This document shows positions 19,800-51,207 of a stretch of 64,000 nucleotides of DNA, piece after piece. The notes below the pieces were generated by a model. The model was not told the DNA's origin. It saw nothing but the letters and a program-made list of their open reading frames with translations, and searched no databases. The translations under genes were made by a program, and so were the position numbers. Source of the DNA: Sphagnum compactum (lineage: Eukaryota); NCBI GenBank assembly GCA_965153455.1, contig OZ234493.1, positions 26,650,213 to 26,714,212 on the forward strand. Reading direction: 5' to 3'. Positions within the stretch are counted from its first letter, which is position 1, and each line of letters opens with the position of its first letter.

Positions 19800-21365
19800 G
19801 TTAAATTATTTTTTCTTGAATTTTATTCCACCCTAGATTATTATCTAATAGTTTATTTTAAGTTATTTTACATTTTTATTTTAAATTATTATTGATTAAT
19901 TTCAACTATTTCACCTTAAATTATTATAGGAAATCATACCCTAGGTTATTTTAGTTATTATAGGTTTATCCATTTTAAGTAATTTTAGAATATTGATTAT
20001 TATTAAATTTTTAAATTATTCCACCTTAGGTTATTTTGATCTATTTTAAGTTATTCCATCATATATTATTTTCAATTATTTTAAATTATTATAGGATTTT
20101 CCACCACATATTATTTTTAAATATTTTAAATCATTATACCATAAGCTATACCTAGCCTATGGTGGATTAGTCTATAATAATCAATAATAGCATAAGGTAT
20201 AATACCCTAAAATAGCCCACATTGGAATACTTATAATCACTCAAAAAAAACATAAAATTTAATAACATATAATAGCCCAAGGTGGAATAACATAAAATAA
20301 ATAATAGTTTAATAATTTATAATAGTACAAGGTGAAATGTTTTGAAATAATTGAAAATAATCAAGGGTAGAATAACCTTAAATAACCTAAGGTGGATTAA
20401 TAGTTTAAATAACCAAAAAAATGTAAAATAGCCTAGGGTGGAATAACCTATAATAGTTGAAAATAACCTTTAGTGGATTCATGTAAAATAGATTATGGTG
20501 AAATAGCCTAAAGTAACCAAAAATAACCAAGAAAATCCAAAGGTGGAATAGCTTAAATAACTAAAAAAGCTTAATGTGGTTTAGCTTAAAATGATCTAAG
20601 ATGAAATAATTTATAATAATAATTTTATATTGGATTAACCTAAAATAACTTAATGTGAAATAGCCTAAAATAACATGGGGTACAATAGCTTATAATAACC
20701 AAAGGTGGAATAATTGTAAATAGTTTATAATAATTTATAATAACCCATGTATAATAGCTTCAGAATAACAAAAACTAGCATAAAACCCTAGTTAAAGGTA
20801 ATTTAGAAATAGTTTAAAGTAGCTTACATTAACCTAAGAATAACCTAAAATAGCCTACACCAACTTAAGAATAATTTAATATGACCATTAGAACCTAACT
20901 TATGGTAACCCACACATAAACTTGGGTAGCCTATAATAAATTGCATTAACCTAGGGATAACTTAAAATTATCCTATGAACCTAGTCTATGGTAACCTACA
21001 ATAGATTTGGGTAACCTACACTAACCTAAAAATAACTTAAGGTAACCTATTAATATCTTAGATTACATAGGTATGTAAAGTAGGGTAACAAGGTAACATA
21101 GGTAGGAAATATGCTTATGGTAGATACTTAGGTAAATTAAAAAAAGAATGTTCATAATAATGTGTCATGAAAAATCATATCACTTAATTAAATAATGGTC
21201 CAATGGTTAAGGATTTGCTCCTTAAGCATGGAGGTGAAGGGAATGAAAGGTTTAAACCTTTACACTTGCATTTTAAATTTGTGGGCTTAGTTGACCTAAG
21301 TTCCTTGCTTAGGTTAAATGACCTAGGTAGATTAGCTTAAGTCCTTGGGTGCTTAACCTAGCTAA
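19800..21365. repeat. Array of short degenerate motifs with orientation switches (GGTGGAATAA/TTATTCCACC and AACCTA/TAGGT)
   Basis: TTATTCCACC-like copies in 19820-20110, reverse-complement GGTGGAATAA-like copies in 20160-20715, AACCTA-rich 20830-21050, then TAGGT-rich 21065-21135. Confidence 0.8.
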
Positions 21366-22179
21366 GAATTAGGAGACGGTGAATTAACTATTAATGAATT
21401 TAATTAATGATTTCATTTGTCTATAGTAACTAATCCCCATTCACTACATGGCTAGCCACTTTCACCATGACAAATTTGTCCAAATTCATTCAAAATCTAA
21501 TCAAACATAAAATTAACTTGGACACATAAACACCTTTAAAGATGAGCACTCAATTTCGCAAAAAAAGAATCATCTTGCTCTTCCAATAATGCAATATCTT
21601 CAAGAACCAAAAGGTTCAAACCCATTCACATTAAATTACTATTTAAACCTATTAATCCTTTAATGAAAGGAAACATTTTCAACAACTAAAATGTGTTACA
21701 ATCTAGACGCCTACATCCATAGTTGCCAACAATATAAAACATGTCACAATAATCTTGTTTTAAAACATGCACGCACACATAATCATCCCCTTATCTAGAT
21801 AGTATGGGATGTGTTGTGGGATGACCAAAAATAGACACCTTGGTTTCAAGAGATGAATTCAATAGGCTAGGTGTAATTGTGAGCCCCAAGGTTAGTCGCT
21901 TAATTGTAATCCCCTTAATCTTTGACCAAGTATAATCACGTTCAAAGCCCCCCTTACAACATCCTTATTATCAAATACAACTATAAGTATTCCCAACCTC
22001 TTTACATGTGCACCAAAAGCATAACCAATCTCCTTGGGAAACCATCTCCAAAGGTGGTGTTAAACACCCCATGTGCTAACCCATGGAACATTAATCACAT
22101 ATCACACATTGATAACACCATTTGTAAACCCACATTAACATACATTTAAAACTGCAAGCACCACTGCAAGGTTTGGGTG

Positions 22180-22787
22180 GGTGAAAACACACTACAAGGG
22201 GGAACTTTGGCAAAAAAATGTATTCAAATTTTGGTATTTTTGTACTCTTTTGGAAGCAATTTTTTTTCATTTCATCAAGTGTTTTGAGAAACACTTAAAA
22301 TGAATTTTGGACATAAGGCTTTTAACACAATCTTGTTATCTTTCAAAAGAAAGTATTTTTATACATTTTTTTTTCATACACTTATGTTCGTTTACATGAA
22401 AAACCTCGTCCATATGTTTGTTGTGAAATCACATGAGTGGAACTTTTCATATGGAATTGAAATGATACAATTGATTCATATGCAATGTCTGGCTAAACAT
22501 TTAAACAAGTTTGACAATCATTCAAATGATGTTTTGAAATATCTTTGCACTTTGTAATATATTGTTACGAGTATCACATTTTCACAAATATATTTTTTAA
22601 TCATTTATTAGGAATAAAAATTGTAGTTTTTTTTTACAATTTTTATTCCTTGGGTTTTGAACTAGCTCATAATTAATACAATTTATGAAAATCTTTTAAA
22701 ATGGGTTTAATGGAAGTTCAAACACACATAATTTTGAAAATCGATATGTGTGACAACATTTTTTGTTCATCATAATGTGTTTTCACC
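22180..22787. mobile_element. About 610 bp non-autonomous TIR element (MITE-like) nested in the Gypsy integrase
   Basis: Perfect 12-bp inverted ends GGTGAAAACACA (22180-22191) and TGTGTTTTCACC (22776-22787) around an AT-rich non-coding interior. Removing it rejoins ...LPNIDKRVD to PNLAVV... of the retroelement ORF. The TSD is degenerate. Confidence 0.8.
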
Positions 22788-23844
22788 TAGGTCGACCCTT
22801 TTGTCAATGTTTGGAAGATGACATGGCACACAAATGCACACATGATTTTGCCAGATCATGTCGTTTTGATTTTATAAAATCAAGATTCCTTTTTAATTCT
22901 TAAAATAACACATCCTACTATAAGTTCCAACATTGTAAGAATTGTTTGCTCTAGGTATACATAGTCTCCTAAGGTGTATTTTCAAATATGTGACGAATAT
23001 CTTCCTCCATGTATAGTGACATACCACAATGTGTCTTGATGTTGAACAATAACAAAGTTTTTCAAAAACCATTTACATGACTTTCTTAAAGAGTCATGTT
23101 TTATGATCACATGCATGCATCCACACATTTGGATCATCCACATCCAAAATTATCATTATTTCTTTACAAATGGATGGAGGTAGGTTTGGTTCTCAATCAA
23201 TTAAAAGGAAATATGGCAAGAAGTAAACAAATGATGTTTGCGTGCTAAACTTATAGCCCCTAGCCAACCATGGCAATTGGAGGTTCTAATGCCCCAAATG
23301 TCCTTCTTTGCCAACCATGTTTTTGTAAATATCTTTTGACTATTTACACAACCTTATTTGCCAAATTGTCTACATCACAAATTTGCCATCCCAAAATTTT
23401 GTAATGGAAATCATGCGAAAGTCATTCTTTCATGGGTTCGTGCTTTTTGCACACATATGTCATGTGTCAAAAATATGTATGATGCATGTATAAGTAGGAT
23501 GAATGTATGAACCTACTTATATGTGCATCATATTTTCTATCGTGGGCACAAAAACAATCAAGACAATAAGTTTTCCCAAGGACATGAACAAGGGCATGTT
23601 TAATTTCAAATCTCAAATCATGAAACAAAAACATGACATGTGCAAGATAATATTTCAACAATACTTTATTACAAAATCAAAAACAAAATAGAACAAGGAT
23701 GAACCCAAAACTAATATTGAATAGACTAAAGGTAACGGGGAATTTTCCTTTATTACTCATTAGACACCTAGCTCAAATAACTTCCAACTTACATGTGGCC
23801 CATGTTCACCCATGTGTGGCACATGTCCACCCATGTGTGAACTA

Positions 23845-24085
23845 TGAGTGAATTAAAACTCAACTAAAAATGAATTAAGGCTCAACCAATAATGAATTAA
23901 TAATTAACTATGAATTAACAAAAAATGAACTAAGTTAGCTAAAAATGAATTGAAAGTGATCAAAATTTAACTAAAAATGAACTAGGACTTAATTAAGAGT
24001 GAATTAAAAATTAATTAAAAGTGAACTAGAAGTGAATTCAAACTTAATTGGAAGGTAACTAAAAGTGAACTAAAACTAAATTAGG
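23845..24085. repeat. Degenerate tandem array of about 22-bp 'aaaatgaactaa/gtgaattaa' units inserted in the Gypsy element
   Basis: About ten recurrences of (a/g)tgaa(c/t)t at about 22-bp spacing. Confidence 0.7.
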
Positions 24086-25764
24086 AGTTAGGTACAAATT
24101 TATTACAAGTCATGAATAAACGTTCATATGAATGAACTCCATGGCATTGACAATTGTAACACTTTCAACAAAATTGACAAGTTTAAAAAATGGGTAATTA
24201 GCAAAAACATACATTGGGCCAAATAGATCGATGTTTCTTGGTTTTTGAATGTGTAACTAAGTCCCATTTATTTTCTAATGAAAGAATTCCTATAGTCAAT
24301 AATGAGGTTCAACCTAAAGGTGATTAAATTTGTAAGGTGTTTCGGTATTCATTATTAAACAAATGATTGGAAAGATGATGTGCATGCCATAATCCAATAT
24401 GAACAAAACATCGGCTATCACATAATCTGCCACCCTTTAAATGTGCATAAAAATGGCGCCCATCAATGTATTGTTCCCATTGGAAGGTAGATTAGCTCAA
24501 GGGAAAATATGTAACCAACATGTTGGCTTTGATTCAAATAATTTGGTTGAGACACAACATGACAATGTATGTGAGTAAAAAGCCAATGTTTTTGGTGGCA
24601 TTGACTAAACAAGGAAAACAAGTGAGTTGGTAAACATTGGTTTTTGTTAACTTATATAATATGTTATGAAATTTATTTGCTTCAATGCAAGGGAGGAGAA
24701 AATCCAGTGGCAAGGATCCAAAATTCAAACCTACACAAGATTTTTCAAGTTAAATTTGTTAAAGACGTTACATCATTTTGAAGAAATCAATAGTCTATTA
24801 CCATGCCACAAATTTCTTGCAACTTTGTCGTGTCCATGTTGTAAGGAATTTATTTGATTTTTTACTCCTAATATTTTTAGTTTCCAAACCCAAAGTATAT
24901 CAAGTGGCCTTAAAACATGTTAAACCCCTAGCTTTCCAAATAGATCATATGGCCTATATACTTAATTTAATCGTTAAATTTTTTTCATGAATCTTGAAAT
25001 GCAACTTCAATCCATGGGTTTTCAATCATTAAAAAACTCAATGTAGGTGTTTCTCACGCATTTGCATTGTAACATTGGAGTTGATGATGTCATTAATGTA
25101 ACATCAAACATAATCCATCCATCTTAAAATCTTGTCCATAATTACATGGTATTCTACATGGGCATTTTTCAACCCAAATAACAAGAATTACCATTAGTAG
25201 AACCAATCCTTTACATGTTCATAAATTCCCCAAAATGTAGTTTTATATTTGTCCACTTCCTTGATAGGTGTGAGGTGGCACCCAAACTTCAAAGTTCCAG
25301 GTGCTAAATACCCTAGCATGCCCAATGGCATCAAGGATTTCCTCTAGTGTTGGCATGGAATATTTATCAAATTTGGTTTATTGATTCACAAGTTGATAAT
25401 CCCCATACATTTAAAATATGGCAAAATAAACAGGATTAATAAAATTGTGATAAATTGCACCAAATTTGAACCATAAACAATAATTGTTGTTAGATATCAA
25501 ATATAATGAAAATTATACCATATGCATTTTCCATAATTTTAATAAAGTGTTTTTGAAATGAAATTCAAAACATTTTCAAACTACAAGCATAAGAACTAGT
25601 AGATGAACATTATTTCATATGTTTTCAAACACATAAAAGACATATAGATTCAAATTAATGCTAGCTAGATGCCAAAAAAATTAGGAAACATTGAAATGTT
25701 TCAAAGTTATGTAACTTAAGATGCATGTGTATGAATCTTAGCCAAAACTAACTAAAATTGTTTT

Positions 25765-25807: not shown

Positions 25808-28800
25808 TAAATACTAAATCTTAACAACATACCCTAATCATGAATGTGGCATAAAGCTAATAATCTAGGTCAAACAATTGAGGTCCACTGATTGACCTAA
25901 GACTTGTTGATGAAATGCCCCATTTAAACATGGTTGGTAATAATGCCGATAAGAAATCCCATTCATGTTTCTTGGCCAAAAGCCTTGTTGATGAGGATCC
26001 CAAGCAAGTCTTGGTTAATTGTCCCAAAAAACATGAGATATTGGAAAGTTAAACAAAGTTGGGAATGCTATTCATGGCCACCCCATTTTATTGACTAATG
26101 CCAATGGTGGTTTGTTAGTAAACATAATTAGTTATGACAACCTCCCTTTGTCCAAAATGTTGCTAATAATGAATAGTGATGGTCTTTACACCCTATCATA
26201 TTTTTGTTTGAATACTTGTGGTGGTAAAGATTTGTGACCAATGAACTTTCAAACCTACCATTGCTGCATGGACCAACATGACTTGTTCAATCCAAAAGCA
26301 GAGTTGGTGAATACTTGCCTTGATAACTTGGTTTGAGAATCACCCATCAACAAGTTACAACACATTCTTTAAAATGTAAGTTGAAAATTTGTTTAAAGCA
26401 ATTATAAATAGTAGAGCACCCACAACATCTCAACTTGTAAGATGCAATTTCCTTCCAAAAACCCAATGTGAAACCCATGGGATACAAAATTGCTCCACCA
26501 ATCAACACATCATATGACATGACATTTGCCACAATGGTTTTGATTCTCATGGTGAAATCATTGGTAGGATCATTTTGTTGCAATTTCACATAAAATGTTT
26601 GATGTGTGTTCCAATGAACCTTTTTTGATCCACCCAAGGAAATTTGTAAATTCTAGAATGGACAAGGTTCCATATTTGCTTATGTGAGGCCTAAATTGAC
26701 CATGATTGTTTGCCCTAACATTAGTGATTGAACTTTAAAATCCAACAAAACTCATGTTGGTTAAAACCTATTAATTGATGAAGTAGTCAAATACAAAACC
26801 TTGTGTTCATTATCCAATAACACCACTTTCAATGTTATCATTGCAAAATCAATTATTAGCTCCTAGCATTCAATTATTGTAGTTTTGCAATTGTTGCTTA
26901 TAATAGTGCAACAAAGGTTGTCTTCAGAGCAATGTCCACAAGTTCATTTCATGCCACAACATCTACCAATCTTACAAATGATGTTGGCATCTCCCCATTT
27001 GAACACAATAGCGAGTCCAAATCTTGATGTTGCAATCAAAGTTGTAAACAACGAAATTTTTTGACAAATTGTGGTTGTCACCCTTGACAAAATGTTGGCT
27101 TTTGTGATGGAAATCAAGGGTGCACATGATGTCCCTTGTTCTTAATTGAACAACTTGTTCCAATTTAAGCACACTTGGTTGAATTGCATGGCGTGGAAAA
27201 GGCTAGCATAACTTCTACCAATATGTATGATCATAGAAGGTGAACTTGCTAATTAGCTTTCCCCTTTGTGGATCCAACACCACACCTATTCCTCGAAGTT
27301 CTTGAACTTTATTAGTTGATGAAGTAACCACCATTGCAAGATGCATAAGCTTTGGAATGTATCTGCACATATGAAACCCAATCCTGTCAAGTTCACCACA
27401 ATAGATGAGTTAGGGTTCCATATTGAATTTGGTGCCCTTGGAGCTAACAACACATGAATAGTGGATGTTGCTAGAAGTTGTTTATCCAAATTGTGCAATC
27501 CAGTTTGCCATACCTTGATTTATACGACCTCCATAGCTTCGACCTTGGTTTGAATTATGTTTTGTATTTGTTTTTGGCCATCTTCTCTAGGTAGCACCAT
27601 TTCCTTGCCCTCGGCCACCTTGATTGCCACAATTTGAATTTGGTCATAACTTGGGATGTACATCATAGTGATGCACTATGTCATGACCTAACTTGCCACA
27701 ATGCCCACATTGTGGTTGGGTCACAACAACTTGCCAAGGGACAAGTTCATGATAGTTCATGTTCAAGGTGGGTCATGATGATGACACCAATTTTGATTCC
27801 CTCTTGAAGACCCTTGAGATATTTGTGGAACAATTTTGTTTAGTTGCCCATGTTGTTAAATTTGTGGTTTAAATGGTTGGATGTGCTAATTGTCATCGTC
27901 ACCACTTTCTTTTTCGCCATGTTCAATTCAATTTTATTTGCTAGTAAAAACACATTTACTAAGGTAGGTTGACCAACTTGTAATATAGTAACATTTCATA
28001 TTTTTTGCCTAAGTTCTTTGCCCAAGATTCCATACCAAAACTTGATGACTTAAACTTTTACAATCCCTTAAGTTACAATCATCAACTTCAGCATACATGC
28101 ATATATATTAAACAAACTTTCATTTGTTTTGTGTTGAAACTTCTACAAACTTCATAACTTTTTTGTTTGAACCCCTTGGTAGTTCTTTCACAATTCATGG
28201 AAGAATTCCATTATGGGGTTAAATAAATGTAATGGTCCTTATTCACTAGGCAAAAGGCCAACATTGACACCTCCACTTGTCAAATTTCCATTTGAAATTG
28301 ATGGAATTACTCCTATAGCAATAATGTTCATAATGATTCAAACATAATTCAATGACAATTTTTAATTTGCACCTTGTGGGTCTGTTTAAAATCATGGTAA
28401 ACATCCATAGGTAGCTTTTCTAGATGTTGAAACAAACTCTTCCATGCAATGAAAGGTGTGAATAATTATGGATTTCACATTTATTACATATCACACCAAT
28501 TGTCCAACTCTTGGATGAAATCAATGAGCTCAATGATGCCCACCATTCCAAGATATTACTACGGGCCCTTCAAGGTTCCATAAACATTTTCCATGTTCGA
28601 TAATAATGGTGTAATAACAAAAGGAATAAAAATAATGGTTAGAATAAAAGTTTTTTTTTTGCCCTTTAATGATGTTGGTGGTATGGGTGGTTTGAACCAC
28701 ACCCTTCCTTTTGTAACCCACTAGTGAACTATTAAAGCACCCCCTATTCATGAACCCTTGCCCCCTTTGTGGCACTCTAAAACCTTAAAACCTATTCCAA

Positions 28801-36275: not shown

Positions 36276-39200
36276 TCAATGCCGGTTTTCACTAATTGAC
36301 TTCTTCTCAGTGTACATCATGACTTGCATGTCCACATACGAGACCACCTTGTCCAGCAGTCTGCTCCTAAGAATAGGCTTCACAGTGCCCTGCATGGACA
36401 GAACCACCATGATGTTAAAACTCCTCTCTTGAACCCACTTAAACCCTTATTTGCTTTGGTCTCATCAAACATCACATATACAATTGAGCAGATCATGGTC
36501 ATGGTTCAGTGAGAAGACATAAAGCATAGAATCTGGAGCATTATCATCTTCATCTCACCTGAATTCTGCTGTCCCTGTACTTCTTGATCTCTTTCTTCAC
36601 CACGTCCTCAGTCAGCTTGCTACAGAGCCTTTCTGTGTCCTTGAGATTTGCCTGCAAAATAAATGTCCAGACATTGTAGAGTTGTGGATGCGGAAGGGTA
36701 CAAGTCACAGTTCAAACCATGGGGTCCACAGATACTTAACAATCTGTGTCTAAGCATTACATCTTACTTATGTTTTCTTGATACTTACCTTGTGATGTGA
36801 GTCTACTCGATATCTGACCATAGCTGAAACCTGCATACCAGCACAACAGAAATGAGATTTAAGCAGAATAGAGTTCTTGCAGAACACTCTAACTATGAGA
36901 ACACCTCTCCACAGAATATGCAAATGGGGCTTCATGTGTTATTTGCACAGCTGAAAGCTCACATGCTGTTCAAAGCTTGAACACTCGGGTGTCTCCCAAG
37001 ACACAATCGCACCCAACTCATCAACTGTGTAGTCTGACCTCCTGTATACATGGTTCTCAGTCCAACCACTAGCCTCCTGTCCAGATCCCTGAGGATGCCA
37101 AGATTGGGGAAATCGATTCTGCACAATGTGAGGTTCCTTCTGGTCTACATGTGCTCTTGAAGAAGGAGTCTCTTTAGTTGGCAGAGCTCCTGTGCTTGAG
37201 TGGAATGAGCATTTTGCTGTGTCCTCCTCTGATTGTTTTGCAGGACCAGCAGCCTGATACATTGCACCATATGGTTTCTTACTTTGCCTACTGGAACTTG
37301 GACCTTGTGAGGGTCCTGACAATGACCCCCTATGAACACTTCTATGTGAATTCAGACCGCTTTGAGCTCTCACAGGAGATAACCCAGGTACAGGTGGCTC
37401 AGGCTGTCCCTCAAGACCCTGTGATTCAGCTTGCACAACCTTGCTGCCTGTGCATGAAGACCCACTATGTCCATTAGATGCTCTGCTAGCTTCTTTACCT
37501 GATGTTGAACCACGCTCCCAGGATCGGGCACGCTGGGATGACCATTTTTTGGACCAGGAAGCCATGGGATGAGCAGGTGGCCTTGACTGACCAGCAATCA
37601 TGAAAGATGCACCACCTGCAAGTGGAGCTTGTCCACTTGGTTGCATCTGCCAAGGCACATAAGATGCAGCAGGCACTATAGACACTGGTTGGTGAACTCC
37701 TTGGGAAGGAGGACCTGTTGGGAATCCAAAAGGCAAGGGAGGGGCTGTAGCCAAGGACATCTGTGGGAGCCCTCCATGCATAGGTGGATTAGGAGGTGCT
37801 CCACCAGATGGAGGGACCAGAGTTGTTGGAGGTTGACCTGCAAACAGGTTGGAGGCATGTGTAACCACTGCCATACCATTCCCTAACGGAATCACCTGCA
37901 TGCCCATGTGGACAGGTCCAGGAGGCAAATGTGTCACTATGGGCATTTGTCCTGGTATCCCAACAAATATCTGAGCAGGCATAGCAGGTTGTCCAGGTAG
38001 GACCACCATCTGTTGGTGTCGTGATGCATGCCCTCCTGTAGCTTGGCTCAATGGTGGGATATTTGCATGGACTGAGGGCTGACCTGGTCGAGGGGGCCCT
38101 GCTGGTAGTTCAACCAATGAGGACTTTGTTGAGAGGGTAGAGGCAGCTGGTGTATATATTTCTGAGGAACTCCAAGCAGTTTGCAAGGATCCTGATGAAG
38201 CTACTGTTTTACTGTCCTGGTCCTGAGAGCCACCCAGGTGACCAGGCGATGCTTCAAACTGGGGAGATCCAGACTCACAATCTGACATAGGCAACTTAGT
38301 TACTTGGCCTTGTGTTCTGCTGTTTGAAACCTCCAAGGATGTCACCTGCTGCTCACAGGGAGCTAATGAAGACGGCTGCGCCTGCCACACTAGACCAGCA
38401 GCCCCATTAGTTGAAAGGGCAGCTGTCACTAGGTCAATGGTTGCTGCTTCAGTATCTGGTCTATGAGTGCTACTCAGCGTGTCCCAGCGACTAGGCCTCT
38501 TCCGCTTGGTGGTTGCTGGCCCCACTGGTTGCTTGCTTTTGATTGCTACAGAAAAGGGATCTTGTGTTGCAGTTAGATCCTTCTGCTTTGCTTGTTGCTG
38601 TTGTGGCATATTGCATGCAGAATATTGAACAAAACAAGACTTGGGTCCTGATTCCAGAATATGCTCCGGGACCAATAATGAGGATGGTTGCTGCTGCCCC
38701 GGTCTGGAAATTGATCTGTCAGACTGGATATTATGTGAGCCCTGACTGGGAGATGCCATATGTAGTTGGTGTTCCTTTGCTCTTTCTGACACCTGATCAG
38801 AAGGCTGTGAGCGTAGAGGTGATGCATGCCTGTAACCATTCCCACTCTGTAGATCCATAGACTGCAGTCGTGGAGGGACATACTTTCTTCGAAAGCTACG
38901 AGCCATTGTGTGCACCTGTATCACAAGTAATCCAGCATCAACATTTATGTCAGACTGTGAAGGTCTCCCAAGGGCCACCAAGCTGCTGACATACTAGGAA
39001 GTTTCCTTCTATGGACCCATCTTTCCTTGCCTACAATGTCAGTGGGTCCTCCCATGTGATCACAACACTAGGTCAACAGATCCTACTAGATCATGCTTCC
39101 ATTGAAAGATCTGAAATATGCCATCAGCATGTGTCTCTTGACCAGATTCAATGACCCACTAAAAATGATGACAGAACCATATCCATCCTCAGAGATCTTC

Positions 39201-45200: not shown

Positions 45201-48200
45201 CACATATCCCGATTGAACTTCTGTTTTCTTAATCATCACAAAAAAATAAAGACACTGAAGACAACTTTACAATTCATACCCAGCTCTTCTGCAAATGCAA
45301 TAATATAGCTGCTCCTTGGGAAGAACATTGGAACCACAGTAAGAGAGGAACAAGATGACAAAGTTCAGATTTGACAGCTCATGGAGCCAATAGAGTAATC
45401 AGCACAGGGCAATCAGCAACCTGAAACTCCTATCGCCCAACTAAACATTCCCTAAACTGAATGGCCCCATGAAGGTAGACTGCAAGGCACTGTTAGTCCT
45501 TACAATAATCCTTGCTGCTGTATCAACCACACAAAGCCACTAACCACTAACACCATAGTAAAATAAAAACAACAATGGTGATGGAAACACTGACCAACAT
45601 TGGTCCCTCTCCTCAAAGAGCCAAAACTATCCACACAAGCCCTTCCCATCTCTTCCTTCATCAGGTTGGCTGCTGTACTCAGATCATTTACAGCTCCATG
45701 TGCAAGGTCTGATGACAATTCATGACTTTAGGACCATTCAGCAGAAAGGAAGAGAGGGAAGATATATTTCATGAGCATTTGCAGTTGGCAGCCTACCTTT
45801 CTGCAAAGACTGTGCATCACCTCCGGTGCAGTTCCCATCTGAAGTAGAATTCTTTTTCAACATCGGCTCTGGTTGTTTTTTGCACGTACTTTTCTTAGTT
45901 ACACCTGGAACAAACATTGATAACTGTCAGATTACATCAAAGGTCAGAACTGTGGGTGAACACTGAGGAGCTAGAAGTCCCCAGTTACAGGCCATTCTCG
46001 TTTTCACCCACAATCTCACGTAACGGTCAAATATTCACCTCCCCGTCAGAACACTGCCTACCTGACATCCAGCGTCCTTGCTTGGACAGAGCAGGGGCCT
46101 CTACAGCCACTTGACATTTTCTTGATGCAGCAAGAGGTTTGACAGCTGGGGTGTTACATTTGCGAATTCGTACACTGCCTGTAGACAACACATCTACTTC
46201 AGTGAAGTTGTTGAGCAATATGTTATTCACCGATGCACCCAAAGCTCATGCACCTCATTCCCCACATCCACCAAGCTCACCTCTGTGCACAACTTGTGAG
46301 GCCTGGCTCCATTTCTCACAGATTCCCTTTCCTGATGATGCCAAATCATCAGCAGTTTTTGCAACCTCATGGGACAAAAAACCACCCTCAGAAACTTCAA
46401 GAGGTCCTTTCTCCCCTACCAGGCTCTCCTTTTCAACATGTTTCCCCACAGCCACCTTGCTTTTTTTGCTACAGGACATCGGCTTGTGTCCCACTTCTAA
46501 TTTTTTTGCCTTTCCAGCACTGCAAGTATCCCTTTGAGCCTCAGTGACTTGTCCGAACTTTCCCTTTCTGTTTCTCAAGGGCACCTTCCCATCTTTTGGG
46601 AAGACAGCATCTGAGGCTGCCACAATTTGTTCATTCTCTACGTTGGTACCTCCAGCATCTGGACAACCAGCAATCATTGCTCTAAGCCAAACAACAATAA
46701 ATTTATGCCAGCCAGAACCAGTGTGACTGAGAACCCCTTACCTACACCATAGGTACTGCATCCTTCTCAGAAGGCAGGCACTGAGCTTCACAGGTGGTCA
46801 TGCATCTCAGTACATTTATCAACCAGTTGAACTTCAAAGTCTGGATTGGATCTGGTTTATCCACTCATCTCTGTCTAGCATACATAAGACCAAGAAGGTC
46901 TCATCCTTTCAACTCAAGAAATAAGAAGCACTTGCTTCAAGTGGTTCCTTACACCACAAAGCAGCCAAGTAGCTGGGTGCAAGAATTCAATGATTGAATT
47001 CAGGTAAGCTGCAAGTCTCGCACTGTTTCCATGAAAAATGCCTAGTGCTGTGGAAGTTCATTTCATAAGGAACCATCCTGAGCAACCAAAAACTTCTACA
47101 GCACCACATTTCATACTCTCCACAGCCACAAACTTGATGTCTAGCATTCCCTGCCTAGATGTCCCAGATAAGACTCAGCAGGTTGCTACATCCCTTAATG
47201 CCTCACAAGAACTATAAATGAGACAAAGAGCCTGGAGTTGCTGACCAGTAACAAGAACAGCTGAGTGATTCAATGCACAAGGCTCAATCTATGAGCAAGA
47301 TTAGAGCAAATGAGAAGGAGGATGTGACTAAGTTGCAAGAGAAGAAGCAAGCAATTAGGGTGATGAAGTGCAATGCATTTGAACCTGTAACATTGTCACC
47401 AGCAATGCCTTCAGTTGTTCCATCTCCATGTCCAAATGACTTGTGCATTGTAGCATCCCAGGAAGTCACAGAAATGGCATCCTCCCCAGACAATCCACTT
47501 GATTTTCCCCATTGACAGCTGTACTCTTCTTTAGCAGTGTGCTCAGTATGTCCAGCTTCCTCCTCTCCAGGCTCCAATGTTGTTGGAGCCTTAAACATAG
47601 CCTCAGAGACAGCAACAGGATTTGCTTGGATATTGATCAGTCCTGCCTTCCCAACATCAACAGGTTCCTCTTCCCCTCCCTTTCTTGCAAGAGCAAAAGG
47701 AGTATGACTGATTTCCTCTACAATCCCTCCATCTCCACTAGTTTTAGATTCTAATTGGTCCTCAATCTGTTGTGCATTACCTGCCCTAATCTTATTTCCT
47801 GCCATTGCAGCTGATAAATTATGAATCCTCTCTTGTTTCTGCACATTACAAGCCTCCTTTAAACCCCTAGAGAGACGTGAAATCTGATCCATGATCAATC
47901 CAGACTCTATCTCTTCTCTTTCCCCATTGTGACCTGTGTCATTCTGACAGCCCAAGGCATCCTGTCTTATTACTTCTTGATCCGTCTCTTCACCTTGCTC
48001 TTGGCCAAATGAAGCTGTACCATTTGCCCCAGAGAGACAATTTGTGTTGACAGCATTGCCATCTACTGCTGTTTCTTGCCCCAAAAACCCAGCCTTTGTG
48101 CTGACCCTCAGTTTTTCAAACTGTCCATCAACACATGCTAAACTCTCAGGTCCCTTATGCCTCTTTCCACTAACCCGTCCACCACTAGTATGCACATCAT

Positions 48201-50820
48201 TTATATGAGAAATTTCCTGGAGCTGAGAGTTATCCAGTGGCTTAGCTTCCTTTGCAACATCCTTATCAACTCGGCATCTACTTCGTTGACTTCCAGTTGA
48301 GCTGCTTTCCAGAATCTTGTCCACTTCCAAGGCATTCAAATTATCTTCCTGACTTAGCTTTCCCCCTGGCTGTGCCAGTTCTGTTGGCCAATTGGGACTG
48401 ACACTGTGACCAATTTCATTTCCATTGGACATTCCCTTTCCAACAGCAATTCTCCTCTGATTCTTACCTCGCCTTCGAATGTTTTTATGCTGGATGGTTC
48501 TGAGTGGTTGTAGCTCAGTCTCTCTGCCTTCCATGCTGACTGGTCCCTCATGCTGGTGATGACTTTTCTTCTTAGCCCAGACAGTTCCTTCCAATTTCTT
48601 CTTTAGAAAGAGCCTCTCCACTGGACCCCGAGCTTCAGTCATCTGGTCTGATGCCAAATCAACATGAGGACCCTCCAGTCCCCTGTTCATGGCAGGACCA
48701 GGAACATCATTACTCTCTGCAGTATGAACAGTGATGCAGTTGCCCCATCCTTGCCTGCCCCCTCTGCCAGCACTCCGCTTCCCGGTCTTCTTTCCTGTGA
48801 TTGTCTCAAACAAGATTCAGCAAGAGAGACCCAAAAGCTACAAAAACACATACCAAAATTGCTTGGATCAACAAACTGCCCAGTTCTCTAACCCTACTTA
48901 TCTTGCAGTATGTGTCAAGTACCAGAAATGCCCATGCTGTAAAACAGTTGCACTCAACACAGATTACCCCAGTAGAGTCTTACCTGGAACAAATACCACA
49001 CCTTTAGGGCATGCTGACTCATGATCAGAGTCTTGATTCTGGCAAATAAACCTTCCTGTGGCCCTACTTCGTGTCACGCGAATCCTCCCAGTTTCATTCT
49101 GGAATCTGAAGCCTTCTGCCAAGGATCCATCCTGAGCAGCACCACCATTGCTTTCCTCCACCTGGAAAGCAACCTCTTTGCTTCCAGTTTGCTTTCCATG
49201 AAAACCCTTTCCAGCTCTTCGAGGCCTCACCACCTGTGCATCCAACAGTGCTCCCAGCTCTCGTGACACTCGCCCACTCTTTCCACGGGTTGATGGCAAA
49301 GTAGGAGTACCTTTTTCCTCAGGCAACTTCTGACTATCTTCCATCTTCATTCCTGCACCTGGTCCGGCATCCACAAGCAAAAACATTTAGCAGAATTCAC
49401 CAAATAGGGTTTATACTGTGCTAATAATCAGAGTCAATATGTGGAAGGCAGTGCACAACAATTCATCAAATAGGGTTTACAATCAGAGTCAATATGCTGA
49501 AGGCAGTGCACAACAAGGATGCACTAGCATTGCAGGAAATGATGCATCAATGTGAATCTCCCCCTTCAGTGCAAAAGAATATTCAATCTGTAACCCCTGC
49601 AATATCACATCTCAACTTACCTGAAACCAAAAACCCTAAAAGGAGGTCCAGGCTTGGTTTCCAGTCAATGACCAAACCCAACTCCATGCTGCATCTGACA
49701 AGAGTCTTCTCTCACATATGATTGATTGATTCTTACCTGCTACTATACAAGTTGGAGGGTGCGCAGCAGGCTCTTTGCATATGCTTGTAGCATGATAGAT
49801 TTCCTGCTTGGCATTTCCCCTTTCAACAATTGTTTCTTTGAAGGCATGGATCTTGTTGAAGATTCTCAAAGGCCTTGGCTGTGATTCTGGCTGCTGCTCG
49901 AATTCGGTAGCAGCTACTCCAGCCTGAATGTCACCCAAAGAACAGGGATCCTGCAGCATGTCGCTGCATTCTTCTTCTTCGCCCTCGTCAACCCTAACCC
50001 CAGAAGAGGACACACACCCTACCAATCCTCCATCGCCACCACCCACTTGGCTCCCCTCCTCCTCTTCTCGCCCACGGACGTCGTCATCATCGTCGAAAAT
50101 CGATTGAATCTTCGGCCCAAAGGAGGAAGAACAACCCATCAAGGGAACATCATCCCCATGCAAAACCCCGAACTGCAACCCATTCGCATGATCATCATGG
50201 CCAGCTCCACAGCCCCCACTACCATAAGGCCCTTGGTAATGCTCTGTGTGGAGAGCTCCTCTACCTAAGCGCTCTTGTGCCTCCTGTCCACCCGCCGCAT
50301 TTGGGATCAATTCCCCTCTGCCCCCATATTCGCCATACTCAAAACCTCCCGCCCCTCCTAGTCCCCCACAATTTCCACCTGCGTACTGATACTGCTGAGC
50401 TTCGCCCTGATTCTCAGAACCCATCGCCCCATTCTCGTCTTCCTCATCCTCCTCGTCCTCTTCATCTTCCTCTTCCTCTTCCTCTTCTGTTCCCGCAGCC
50501 CTGAACCCTAAATAATCCGGACCTTGATCTCCTCCTCGCAAATTCCCAAGAGCCGCAACACCAGCTGCGCCACCAGCTTCTTCTACTCCTAGCTCTTCTT
50601 CTTCTTCTTGTGATCCTCCTCCTCCTCCTCCTTCGTCGCTGCTCTCCAATTTGAACAGATTCGCGACATCATCCCGTTGTCCACCACCAGAGCCGCGGTA
50701 TCGGAACCGCTCCACGTTCATGATCACCACGCCGTGCGCCAATTCCAAAGAAGCTGGAAACTCCAGGTTCTTCGCCGTTGCAAAATGCTCAAACAGCGGC
50801 CCCGTCCCATCATCCTCCAT
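36276..50820 (-). CDS. ASHH2: Histone H3K36 methyltransferase of the ASHH2/SDG8/EFS (Set2-like) class: long disordered N-terminus, CW zinc finger, AWS, SET, post-SET, helical domain, Pro-rich region, SRI-like C-terminus; more than 25 exons
   Basis: [18 protein letters not shown]...[19 protein letters not shown] (45139-44923, 44560 to about 44394). [45 protein letters not shown] (about 44026-43896). [46 protein letters not shown] (42993-42916), GEEITFNYN. Post-[18 protein letters not shown] (about 42025-41930). Also [27 protein letters not shown]. Last exons about 36830-36790, about 36651-36559 and 36389-36276 (TGA). N-terminal exons 50820-49737, about 49355-48984, 48794-47385, 46658-46281, 46178-46062, 45905-45798 are joined by phase-1 introns; some of these boundaries are approximate. 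Confidence 0.93.
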
Positions 50821-51207
50821 TGTTCTCTTCTCTTCTCTTCTCCACAACACACAAACACACACCCCCTCACTCGACTCCCAAAATACCCACAAAATCAACA
50901 ACTAAGTCCACAACAAAAACAAACCCAAACTCCTCCGAATTCATTCCAAGTCTCCTCATCAGAAGAAAAATCAACAGCAGCAGCAGAAGCAGAAGACATG
51001 TGCACGAAGACTACTGTCTCATCAACCTATTAAGAAACAACGGCTACTGCTGATGCTCCAGCGAGAACGATACTCTTAAAGCCCCCAGCAGCAGGCATAC
51101 AGTAGTCCCAGGACCTTGTTGTTGGATCTTCTTCAACATGCTTCCTGCTGCTGCTGCTGCTACTGGCTGATTATAAGCACTTTTCACATCATTTTCCCCA
51201 CACCCGA

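What the first reader, a model, noticed from the sequence alone, without database searches (positions are those of the whole stretch)
22005..23050. Gypsy integrase that ends in a PHD finger rather than a chromodomain
Seen: the minus strand at 22177-22005 reads PNLAVV...KCML(fs)CG...CVICD*CSMG*HMGCLTPPLEMVSQGDWLCFWCT, a full C4-H-C3 PHD pattern with the LxPPL and WxC signature. It continues directly from the integrase tail (GDYVYL...CVPCHLPNIDKRVD) once the 22180-22787 insertion is removed. Established: chromoviruses use a C-terminal chromodomain to read histone marks and bias integration, and PHD fingers read H3 tails (H3K4me0/me3). Inference: this lineage may use a PHD finger as an alternative chromatin-targeting module. 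The ORF track misses it because of stops, a frameshift and the nested element. I cannot tell from the sequence how well this fusion is already described.
Basis: partly seen in the sequence, partly recalled or inferred. Interest (0 to 1): 0.75.

Follow-up and report, generated by a model that had tools for sequence, protein, structure and literature searches.

The report
Moss retrotransposon integrase with PHD finger
This is a dead copy of a widespread green-plant jumping gene whose insertion enzyme ends in a histone-tail-reading PHD finger and which also carries its own DNA methyltransferase; the fusion is real and old, similar add-ons are already known in algae, and a role in steering insertion is likely but unproven.

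Summary
Confirmed. The PHD remnant at 22010-22144 (-) hits Pfam PF00628 (E 4e-5) and joins the integrase tail across a 610-bp MITE. The window holds a whole decayed element: gag, protease, DNMT, RT, integrase C-half, PHD. Young relatives in this moss-like genome carry one 2483-aa frame, gag-PR-DNMT3-like-RT-RH-INT-PHD. The INT-PHD fusion recurs in liverworts, Klebsormidium and chlorophytes (116 of 120 long homologues), and the finger is under purifying selection. It is not an H3K4me3 reader: 0 of 167 have the cage tryptophan, 156 keep the H3R2-binding aspartate, and the nearest structures are unmodified-H3 readers. The window's own lineage lacks the other acidic residues. The element is not a chromovirus. 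It is kin of KnitGypsy-Dnmt3, with split repeats (A...B-A-B), 4-bp target duplications and Tf1-like self-priming. A variable A|B junction suggests integration by opening an end-joined circle. A PHD in a Gypsy polyprotein, with the same targeting idea, is published for Chlamydomonas Gypsy-7a. Targeting is not shown: the flank bias is weak. This scan had already noted the family several times in this genome.

The parts
22010..22144 (-). Decayed C4-H-C3 PHD finger, the C-terminus of Pol (two stops, about three frameshifts)
   Evidence: Pfam PF00628 E 4.3e-5; tblastn E 2e-7 to the L059 INT-PHD frame; breaks located
22145..22178 (-). Spacer between the integrase C-terminal domain and the PHD (PNLAV...)
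   Evidence: Colinear with MITE-free copies L002, L003, L007, L013
22179..22788 (.). 610-bp MITE-like insertion with GGTGAAAACAC terminal inverted repeats and a 4-bp near-duplication; inserted after the element decayed or while it did
22791..23376 (-). C-terminal half of the integrase: end of the core, linker, SH3-like domain (fold name inferred), CAPCHLP-type motif; frameshifted
   Evidence: tblastn E 6e-30 to residues 165-363 of the L059 INT-PHD frame; no Pfam hit of its own
24993..25410 (-). Reverse transcriptase remnant
   Evidence: 50-51% identical to family-A RT, E 9e-31
25868..26390 (-). DNMT3-like cytosine methyltransferase remnant
   Evidence: tblastn E 8e-4 and 0.005 to the DNMT regions of families B and A, in the expected place between PR and RT
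26431..26853 (-). Aspartic protease remnant
   Evidence: E 9e-23
27897..28696 (-). gag remnant
   Evidence: E 3e-57
21795..22005 (-). 3' untranslated region shared with other copies
   Evidence: blastn to many family loci
21522..21785 (-). Probable B1 (21785-21690) then A2 (21667-21522) of the split terminal repeats
   Evidence: The same two segments lie in the opposite order (A then B) in L012 and L015; inference, exact ends not found

Best explanation
The stretch is the 3' end of a dead copy of a green-lineage Ty3/Gypsy-type retrotransposon of the Gypsy-DNMT3 (KnitGypsy-Dnmt3) kind. The PHD finger is the normal last domain of its Pol polyprotein, gag-PR-DNMT3-like-RT-RH-INT-PHD (shown). After processing, the finger would stay on the integrase (inferred). 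Its residues fit the class that binds the free, unmodified H3 N-terminus through R2 and not H3K4me3 (sequence shown, binding inferred). It most likely tethers the integration complex to nucleosomes lacking H3K4me3, away from promoters and into quiet, methylated DNA (inferred; weak support). The DNMT probably methylates the new copy (inferred from de Mendoza 2018). Replication, inferred from the anatomy of intact copies: the RNA primes itself Tf1-style; reverse transcription defines B-GC-A as the true LTR; the cDNA ends are joined; and the integrase opens the internal palindrome CA-GC-TG and inserts with a 4-bp duplication, giving A...B-A-B. My odds: identity of the element and reality of the fusion 0.95, H3-tail binding by intact fingers 0.65, insertion bias caused by the PHD 0.45.
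For: One 2483-aa frame holds protease, PF00145, RVT_1, RNase H, H2C2, rve and PHD (E 1.6e-11). Family-A frames of 383 and 423 aa hold rve plus PHD. The best PDB hits of the methylase are DNMT3A. 116 of 120 listed long homologues carry PF00628. Named homologues come from Calypogeia, Marchantia, Riccia, Sphagnum, Klebsormidium, Haematococcus, Tetrabaena, Pleodorina and Chlamydomonas eustigma. In 22 family-B copies, shared PHD variants are 11 synonymous to 13 non-synonymous on 28 and 110 sites: ratio 0.30, p 0.004. PHD and integrase-core distances correlate (rho 0.26, 0 of 200 permutations as high, n 162). Two residues before the His, 156 of 167 have Gly and none has Trp; 156 have Asp just after Cys3, the place of UHRF1 D334. 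PDB neighbours include BAZ1B, KDM5-PHD1, ATXR5, BAZ2A/B, UHRF1, AIRE and PHF21A. The flanks of 35 family-B insertions are GC-poorer (p 0.02-0.06) and CWG-depleted (p 0.01) against 20 fixed positions; 0 of 35 reach GC 0.45, against 4 of 60 control pieces. Exact 4-bp duplications in 22 of 23 family-B copies. The A2|B2 junction is imprecise in 13 of 29 scoreable family-B junctions, while the B-A spacer is 2 nt in 23 of 23 copies not selected for it (read). A 16-nt match pairs the sequence after A1 with the sequence about 30 nt past the TATA box in both families.
Against: No binding or targeting was measured. The window's own lineage (A-like) lacks the acidic-wall and N-terminal acidic residues in 9 of 9 database members, whereas 6 of 6 B-like ones have them, so H3 binding may be weak or changed in this branch. 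Selection on the PHD (0.30) is no stronger than on the integrase linker (0.32) and weaker than on the core (0.16). The flank bias is small, CpG depletion does not differ (p 0.5-0.8), no PHD-less transposon was used as a flank control, and selection against genic insertions would give the same picture. The excess near chromosome ends (17 of 43) is matched by a chromovirus family (13 of 39, p 0.65) and absent in older copies (2 of 54). The circle model predicts the mirror form A-B-A...B; it was seen in 0 of 34 family-B and 0 of 9 family-A left ends. Only 31 of 123 PHD fusions bound H3 in one published screen.
Confidence: 0.6

Rival explanations
1. The PHD serves the DNA methyltransferase rather than site choice. 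Like the ADD domain of animal DNMT3 (recalled), it senses unmethylated H3K4 and aims or activates the element's DNMT at the new insertion.
For: PHD and DNMT travel together: 111 of 120 long homologues hit the DNMT query (112 with the single query). The finger is of the K4me0-compatible type. In 101 of 120 homologues the DNMT lies between RNase H and integrase, so it could remain on the same processed chain as the PHD.
Against: In this genome the DNMT sits between protease and RT, about 1000 residues from the PHD, and would probably be cut away from it. Gypsy-7a_cRei is described with a PHD and no DNMT in its domain list.
Confidence: 0.2
2. The finger is kept as a structural or DNA/protein-binding part of the integration complex, for example in recognising the internal CA-GC-TG junction, and does not read histones, at least in the window's lineage.
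For: A-like fingers lack both acidic determinants (0 of 9). The element has an unusual end structure that an ordinary integrase tail might not handle.
Against: The R2-binding Asp (156 of 167) and the LxPPL and G-x-W motifs of H3 readers are kept across chlorophytes and bryophytes. B-like fingers keep the acidic wall.
Confidence: 0.14
3. The PHD is an H3K4me3 reader that steers insertions to active promoters.
For: Most H3-binding PHDs in a published screen prefer H3K4me3 (18 of 31), and the Met of the ING-type cage is present in 148 of 167 (cage position recalled).
Against: The cage Trp, required according to (its place two residues before the His is recalled), is absent in 167 of 167. Insertion flanks are AT-rich and CWG-depleted.
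Confidence: 0.04
4. Chance adjacency, or a host PHD exon captured by this one copy.
For: In the window the two parts are separated by a MITE and several breaks.
Against: 143 of 150 scored genomic matches span the junction; open reading frames hold both domains; the fusion exists from chlorophytes to liverworts.
Confidence: 0.01

Closest known systems
KnitGypsy-Dnmt3 / 'Gypsy-DNMT3' of streptophytes (de Mendoza et al. 2018, PMC5890265, passages read; label also in bioRxiv 10.64898/2026.05.21.726589)
   Same: Dnmt3-like domain inside a Gypsy Pol; repeats laid out as in DIRS elements. Klebsormidium INT-PHD proteins are 53-62% identical to families A and B in the integrase core.
   Different: Described there as an acquisition in the Klebsormidium lineage. 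The main text has 0 hits for PHD, moss and Sphagnum; Figure 4c, which may draw the PHD, could not be seen. Here the element is in land plants with young intact copies. Target duplication, self-priming and junction variation are not in the passages I read.
Gypsy-7a_cRei of Chlamydomonas reinhardtii (Craig et al., bioRxiv 10.1101/2022.06.16.496473, section 17 read)
   Same: Gypsy Gag-Pol with a PHD finger; intergenic insertion bias (2.6-fold) and the same targeting hypothesis.
   Different: Two near-complete LTRs, no DNMT listed, and the legend lists PHD before INT; whether it is related to this clade was not tested.
Chromoviruses (Tcn1, Chlamyvir, Tf1/sushi; REXdb, PMC6317226, passages read)
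   Same: A chromatin reader at the integrase C-terminus; self-priming as in Tcn1 and Tf1.
   Different: No chromodomain; RT-RH outside the two chromovirus lineages sampled from this genome; split repeats; DNMT. The REXdb text has 0 hits for PHD and for methyltransferase.
REM1 of Chlamydomonas (Perez-Alegre et al. 2005; not held; recalled, and cited)
   Same: Gypsy-related element with a PHD finger proposed to give target specificity.
   Different: As recalled, the PHD and a chromodomain lie in a separate antisense ORF, not on the integrase.
PAT/Ngaro/TOC1-type DIRS elements with split direct repeats (recalled)
   Same: A...B-A-B layout and a presumed circular intermediate.
   Different: Those use a tyrosine recombinase and leave no target duplication; this element has a DDE integrase, TG...CA ends, a polypurine tract and 4-bp duplications.

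Membership tests
PHD finger | C4-H-C3 ligands and profile match | tested here: met
   Window E 4.3e-5, just under the cut-off because of breaks; intact relatives E 1.6e-11 to 1.3e-9, over the cut-off
H3K4me3-reading PHD subclass | Conserved cage tryptophan | tested here: not met
   0 of 167; requirement; position two residues before the His recalled
Unmodified-H3 PHD subclass (BAZ2, KDM5-PHD1, UHRF1) | Asp after Cys3 that binds H3R2 | tested here: met
   156 of 167, and present in the window copy
Unmodified-H3 PHD subclass (BAZ2, KDM5-PHD1, UHRF1) | Acidic wall or N-terminal acidic residue for K4me0 | tested here: inconclusive
   6 of 6 B-like, 0 of 9 A-like, 62 and 99 of 167 overall; column placed by counting from Cys3 against a recalled BAZ2A layout
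Unmodified-H3 PHD subclass (BAZ2, KDM5-PHD1, UHRF1) | Measured binding to the H3 tail | not testable with these tools
   Needs a binding assay
Ty3/Gypsy retrotransposons | Order PR-RT-RH-INT with a DDE integrase | tested here: met
   D, D and E motifs present in families A and B
Ty3/Gypsy retrotransposons | TG...CA ends, polypurine tract, target-site duplication | tested here: met
   Exact 4-bp duplication in 22 of 23 family-B copies; G-tract before B1
Ty3/Gypsy retrotransposons | Two complete direct LTRs | tested here: not met
   A...B-A-B in 25, A...B in 8 and A...B-GC-B in 1 of 34 family-B copies with both ends placed
Chromoviruses | Chromodomain at the integrase C-terminus | tested here: not met
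   No PF00385; one weak hit in 1 of 18 proteins scanned, P0055, after a second SH3 domain and possibly a fused gene model
Chromoviruses | RT-RH nested in the chromovirus clade | tested here: not met
   Quick tree, 47 of 115 rows: 4 chromovirus rows form a group (SH-aLRT 98) that excludes the PHD elements; only two lineages sampled, no named REXdb references
KnitGypsy-Dnmt3 / Gypsy-DNMT3 | Unrearranged Dnmt3-like domain within Pol | tested here: met
   PF00145 E 8e-8; best PDB hits DNMT3A, motifs I, IV, VI, VIII, IX and X in order
KnitGypsy-Dnmt3 / Gypsy-DNMT3 | DIRS-like repeat layout with Gypsy domains | tested here: met
   for the window copy only the B1-A2 order is supported
KnitGypsy-Dnmt3 / Gypsy-DNMT3 | Orthology to the published Klebsormidium element | tested here: inconclusive
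   Klebsormidium INT-PHD proteins found, but they are partial and not labelled KnitGypsy-Dnmt3
KnitGypsy-Dnmt3 / Gypsy-DNMT3 | Methyltransferase activity | not testable with these tools
   Catalytic Cys and the EN motif are kept; no assay
DIRS / tyrosine-recombinase elements | Tyrosine recombinase, no target duplication | tested here: not met
   rve integrase and 4-bp duplications

The most novel reading that the evidence does not exclude
These elements form an unnamed, ancient green-lineage group of Gypsy-like retrotransposons outside the chromoviruses. They carry a reader-writer kit: an integrase-tethered PHD that seeks nucleosomes without H3K4 methylation, a DNMT3-like writer and, in chlorophytes, a further Tudor-like and N6-methyltransferase-like tail. 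They integrate by a route not described for eukaryotic DDE retroelements, in which the integrase opens an end-joined cDNA circle at an internal CA-GC-TG palindrome.
Probability: 0.3. Interest if true: 0.8.

Novelty: new variant of a known kind. Interest (0 to 1): 0.47.

Why it matters
Chromodomains are the textbook way for a Gypsy integrase to read chromatin. A PHD conserved at the same place from chlorophytes to bryophytes would be a second, independent solution, tuned to the absence of H3K4me3 rather than the presence of H3K9 methylation. It is paired with a DNMT3-like writer whose purpose is an open question in the literature. The genome has young, near-identical copies with known insertion points, so targeting can be tested on natural insertions. 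As a bare observation, a PHD in a Gypsy polyprotein is already published, which limits the surprise.

Tried and rejected
Complex prediction of the family-B PHD with the H3 tail and zinc gave no verdict (0.33 against a mark of 0.34) and is not used either way. RNA runs: contigs from three moss or plant RNA libraries cover the integrase-PHD stretch, but no silent stretch was laid as control and contigs show no starts or ends, so transcription is not shown. Chromosome-end enrichment as a sign of targeting was rejected because a chromovirus family shows it too; the 1.5-Mb limit was chosen after seeing the positions, and copies on contigs C15, C19, C20 and unplaced contigs were left out. The careful tree search did not finish; the quick tree is reported, and two of six chromovirus frames were dropped for covering under 250 residues of RT-RH. 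The window copy's left terminal repeat was not found. Pfam found nothing in the window's integrase piece or in six long ORFs of the window. The mirror form A-B-A...B was sought and not found. A...B copies cannot tell one-LTR circles from recombination between B1 and B2. The host gene that gave the PHD was not sought. Paper searches found no description of an integrase-terminal PHD in a DNMT3-bearing Gypsy element or of such elements in bryophytes; the library lacks most subscription papers, Repbase reports, theses and figures, and bioRxiv supplements were not seen.

Full report
What is in the window. The single-frame part of the finger, read with X at stops, matches Pfam PHD at E 4.3e-5. The interruption is a 610-bp element at 22179-22788 with terminal inverted repeats and a 4-bp near-duplication; it is repeated in the genome (40 of 40 scored candidates of 300). 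The finger also has about three frameshifts between about 22145 and 22103. The integrase piece at 23376-22791 has no Pfam hit itself but matches an open-frame relative at E 6e-30. Upstream lie RT (25410-24993), a DNMT remnant (26390-25868), protease (26853-26431) and gag (28696-27897), all on the same strand and in order. So the window holds a whole, old, dead element, closer to family A (RT 50-51%) than to family B (32%).

The fusion is family-wide. Other copies join the integrase tail and the PHD with no insertion. A protein search of the genome scored 150 of 541 candidates; all 150 matched and 143 span both parts (this selection favours long matches). Family B has young copies with one 2483-aa frame holding protease, C5 methylase, RT, RNase H, H2C2, rve and a terminal PHD. 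Family A has 383- and 423-aa open frames with rve and PHD, and a methylase upstream. The methylase's best solved relatives are DNMT3A. Database searches gave 188 long homologues among 1660 candidates (116 of the 120 listed carry PF00628) and 397 shorter ones among 5810. The named ones come from Calypogeia, Marchantia, Riccia, Sphagnum fallax, Klebsormidium, Haematococcus, Tetrabaena, Pleodorina and Chlamydomonas eustigma. The family-A finger is 92% identical to the Sphagnum-labelled protein, so the host is probably a peat moss or close relative (inference).

The finger is maintained. In 22 of 23 family-B loci with enough cover, variants shared by two or more copies are 11 synonymous and 13 non-synonymous on 28 and 110 sites (ratio 0.30, p 0.004). 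The integrase core gives 0.16 and the linker 0.32, so the finger is constrained but not exceptionally. Integrase-core and PHD distances correlate across 162 homologues (rho 0.26; 0 of 200 permutations as high), as expected if the finger has travelled with the integrase.

What it could read. 167 of 240 homologues fit a strict C4-H-C3 pattern. Two residues before the His, where H3K4me3 readers have their cage Trp (position recalled; requirement from passages of PMC5415848 and PMC3214078), 156 have Gly and none has Trp. 156 have Asp right after Cys3, the place of UHRF1 D334, which binds H3R2. The top solved relatives are KMT2D/C, BAZ1B, CHD4, KDM5-PHD1, ATXR5, EHD3, BAZ2A/B, DPF, KAT6, UHRF1, AIRE and PHF21A. 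KDM5A/B-PHD1, PHF21A and AIRE prefer H3K4me0 according to PMC6979384 (passages). Against a simple story: the acidic wall and the N-terminal acid are present in 6 of 6 B-like but 0 of 9 A-like fingers, and the window belongs with A.

Is there targeting? The 3' flanks of 35 family-B insertions are GC-poorer (median 0.33 against 0.37; p 0.02-0.06) and CWG-depleted (0.36 against 0.54; p 0.01) relative to 20 fixed genome positions, with no CpG difference. This fits insertion into methylated, gene-poor DNA, but also selection, and no PHD-less element was used as a control. The excess near chromosome ends is shared with a chromovirus family. Targeting stays a hypothesis.

Not a chromovirus. A quick RT-RH tree (47 of 115 rows; the careful search did not finish) sets the PHD elements apart from four chromovirus rows and two insect-type rows by a branch of SH-aLRT 100, and the chromovirus rows group together at 98. 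Only two chromovirus lineages and no named references were available.

An unusual element. Intact copies run TG...A1, internal region, G-tract, B1, GC, A2, B2...CA, with exact 4-bp duplications in 22 of 23 family-B copies. No tRNA-type site follows A1; instead 16 nt there pair with the sequence about 30 nt past the TATA box in both families, as in Tf1-type self-priming, which REXdb predicts for Tcn1. The B-A spacer is 2 nt in 23 of 23 copies not selected for it. The A2|B2 junction has additions or deletions in 13 of 29 scoreable family-B junctions (three unscored) and differs in 4 of 8 family-A ones (read). One copy has B-GC-B, and one free B-GC-A piece with 7 nt of the priming site lies inserted elsewhere. 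I infer that B-GC-A is the LTR made by reverse transcription, that the cDNA ends are joined imprecisely, and that the integrase opens CA-GC-TG. Unexplained: the mirror form A-B-A...B was seen in 0 of 34 family-B and 0 of 9 family-A left ends. Of 34 family-B copies with both ends placed, 25 are A...B-A-B, 8 are A...B and 1 is A...B-GC-B. In the window itself only the B1-A2 order is supported.

What is known. De Mendoza et al. 2018 (PMC5890265; passages; supplement search; figures not seen) describe KnitGypsy-Dnmt3 with a Dnmt3 in Pol and DIRS-like repeats, with no text hit for PHD or moss. Craig et al. (bioRxiv 10.1101/2022.06.16.496473; section 17 and passages) report a PHD in the Gag-Pol of Gypsy-7a_cRei with an intergenic bias and suggest targeting. 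PMC6673714, PMC8557442 and bioRxiv 10.1101/2021.11.30.470311 (passages) call PHD a common transposon accessory. The REXdb paper (PMC6317226, passages) has no hit for PHD or methyltransferase. A 2026 preprint (10.64898/2026.05.21.726589; passages and section 7) names Gypsy-DNMT3 of streptophytes and dual-methylase elements with chromodomains, not PHD. REM1 is recalled only. My paper searches found no account of this fusion in bryophytes. Earlier notes of this scan reached similar readings on other copies in this genome; my reading of the repeats and the priming was noted before I looked, and those notes are not counted as support.

Verdict. It is a variant of known things: a PHD-bearing member of the Gypsy-DNMT3 kind, extended to land plants. 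The likely job of the finger is to hold the integrase on unmodified H3 tails, which is inferred and not shown. Interest 0.47.

Noticed in passing
Database homologues P0013, P0031, P0037, P0061 and others: Chlorophyte-type relatives have the order RT-RH-DNMT-INT-PHD (101 of 120) and often a shared tail of 250 or more residues after the PHD (79 of 240). The tail has a Tudor-like stretch (by eye) and an N6-methyltransferase-like part: Atlas 0.94 to an N6_Mtase cluster, Pfam D12 only E 0.12-0.15, motifs in about a third. Possibly dual-methylase elements with a PHD, not named in the parts of the 2026 preprint I read.
   Followed up: partly
L059:7415-8683 and L051:1267-8715 against P0126, P0149, P0204, P0214: Family A's integrase core is 82-84% identical to Calypogeia and Riccia proteins and family B's 89-91% to Calypogeia, while A and B share 59%. 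Possible horizontal transfer between mosses and liverworts, or contamination of those assemblies.
   Followed up: no
L184 (G000:C27), L185 (G000:C339): Unplaced contigs hold Gypsy pol frames that look insect-type (errantivirus-like; label from recall), probably contamination of the assembly.
   Followed up: no
L093 / L059:5667-6116: A free B-GC-A unit with 7 nt of the priming site is inserted in reverse inside a family-A copy; it looks like captured plus-strand strong-stop DNA.
   Followed up: partly
L122 and L091/L092: One copy ends B-GC-B with A missing, and one ends B-A-B-A-B.
   Followed up: partly
window 22179-22788: The MITE family has GGGTGAAA(A/G)CACA(C/T)TA ends and about 610-620 bp; exact 4-bp duplications in 2 of 9 other copies read, so the superfamily is unassigned.
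   Followed up: partly
window 36939-38993, 47284-48816, 49636-50901 (-): Long open frames of 684, 510 and 421 aa with no Pfam hit at E 0.1.
   Followed up: no
window 19870-20850 and 23830-24113: AT-rich arrays of short degenerate repeats (about 25 and 11 bp periods); the second lies inside the element between integrase and RT.
   Followed up: no
G000:C17:6.33-6.42 Mb and 9.0-9.15 Mb; contig C20: Young chromovirus copies cluster at these places, three of them 24.0 kb apart.
   Followed up: no
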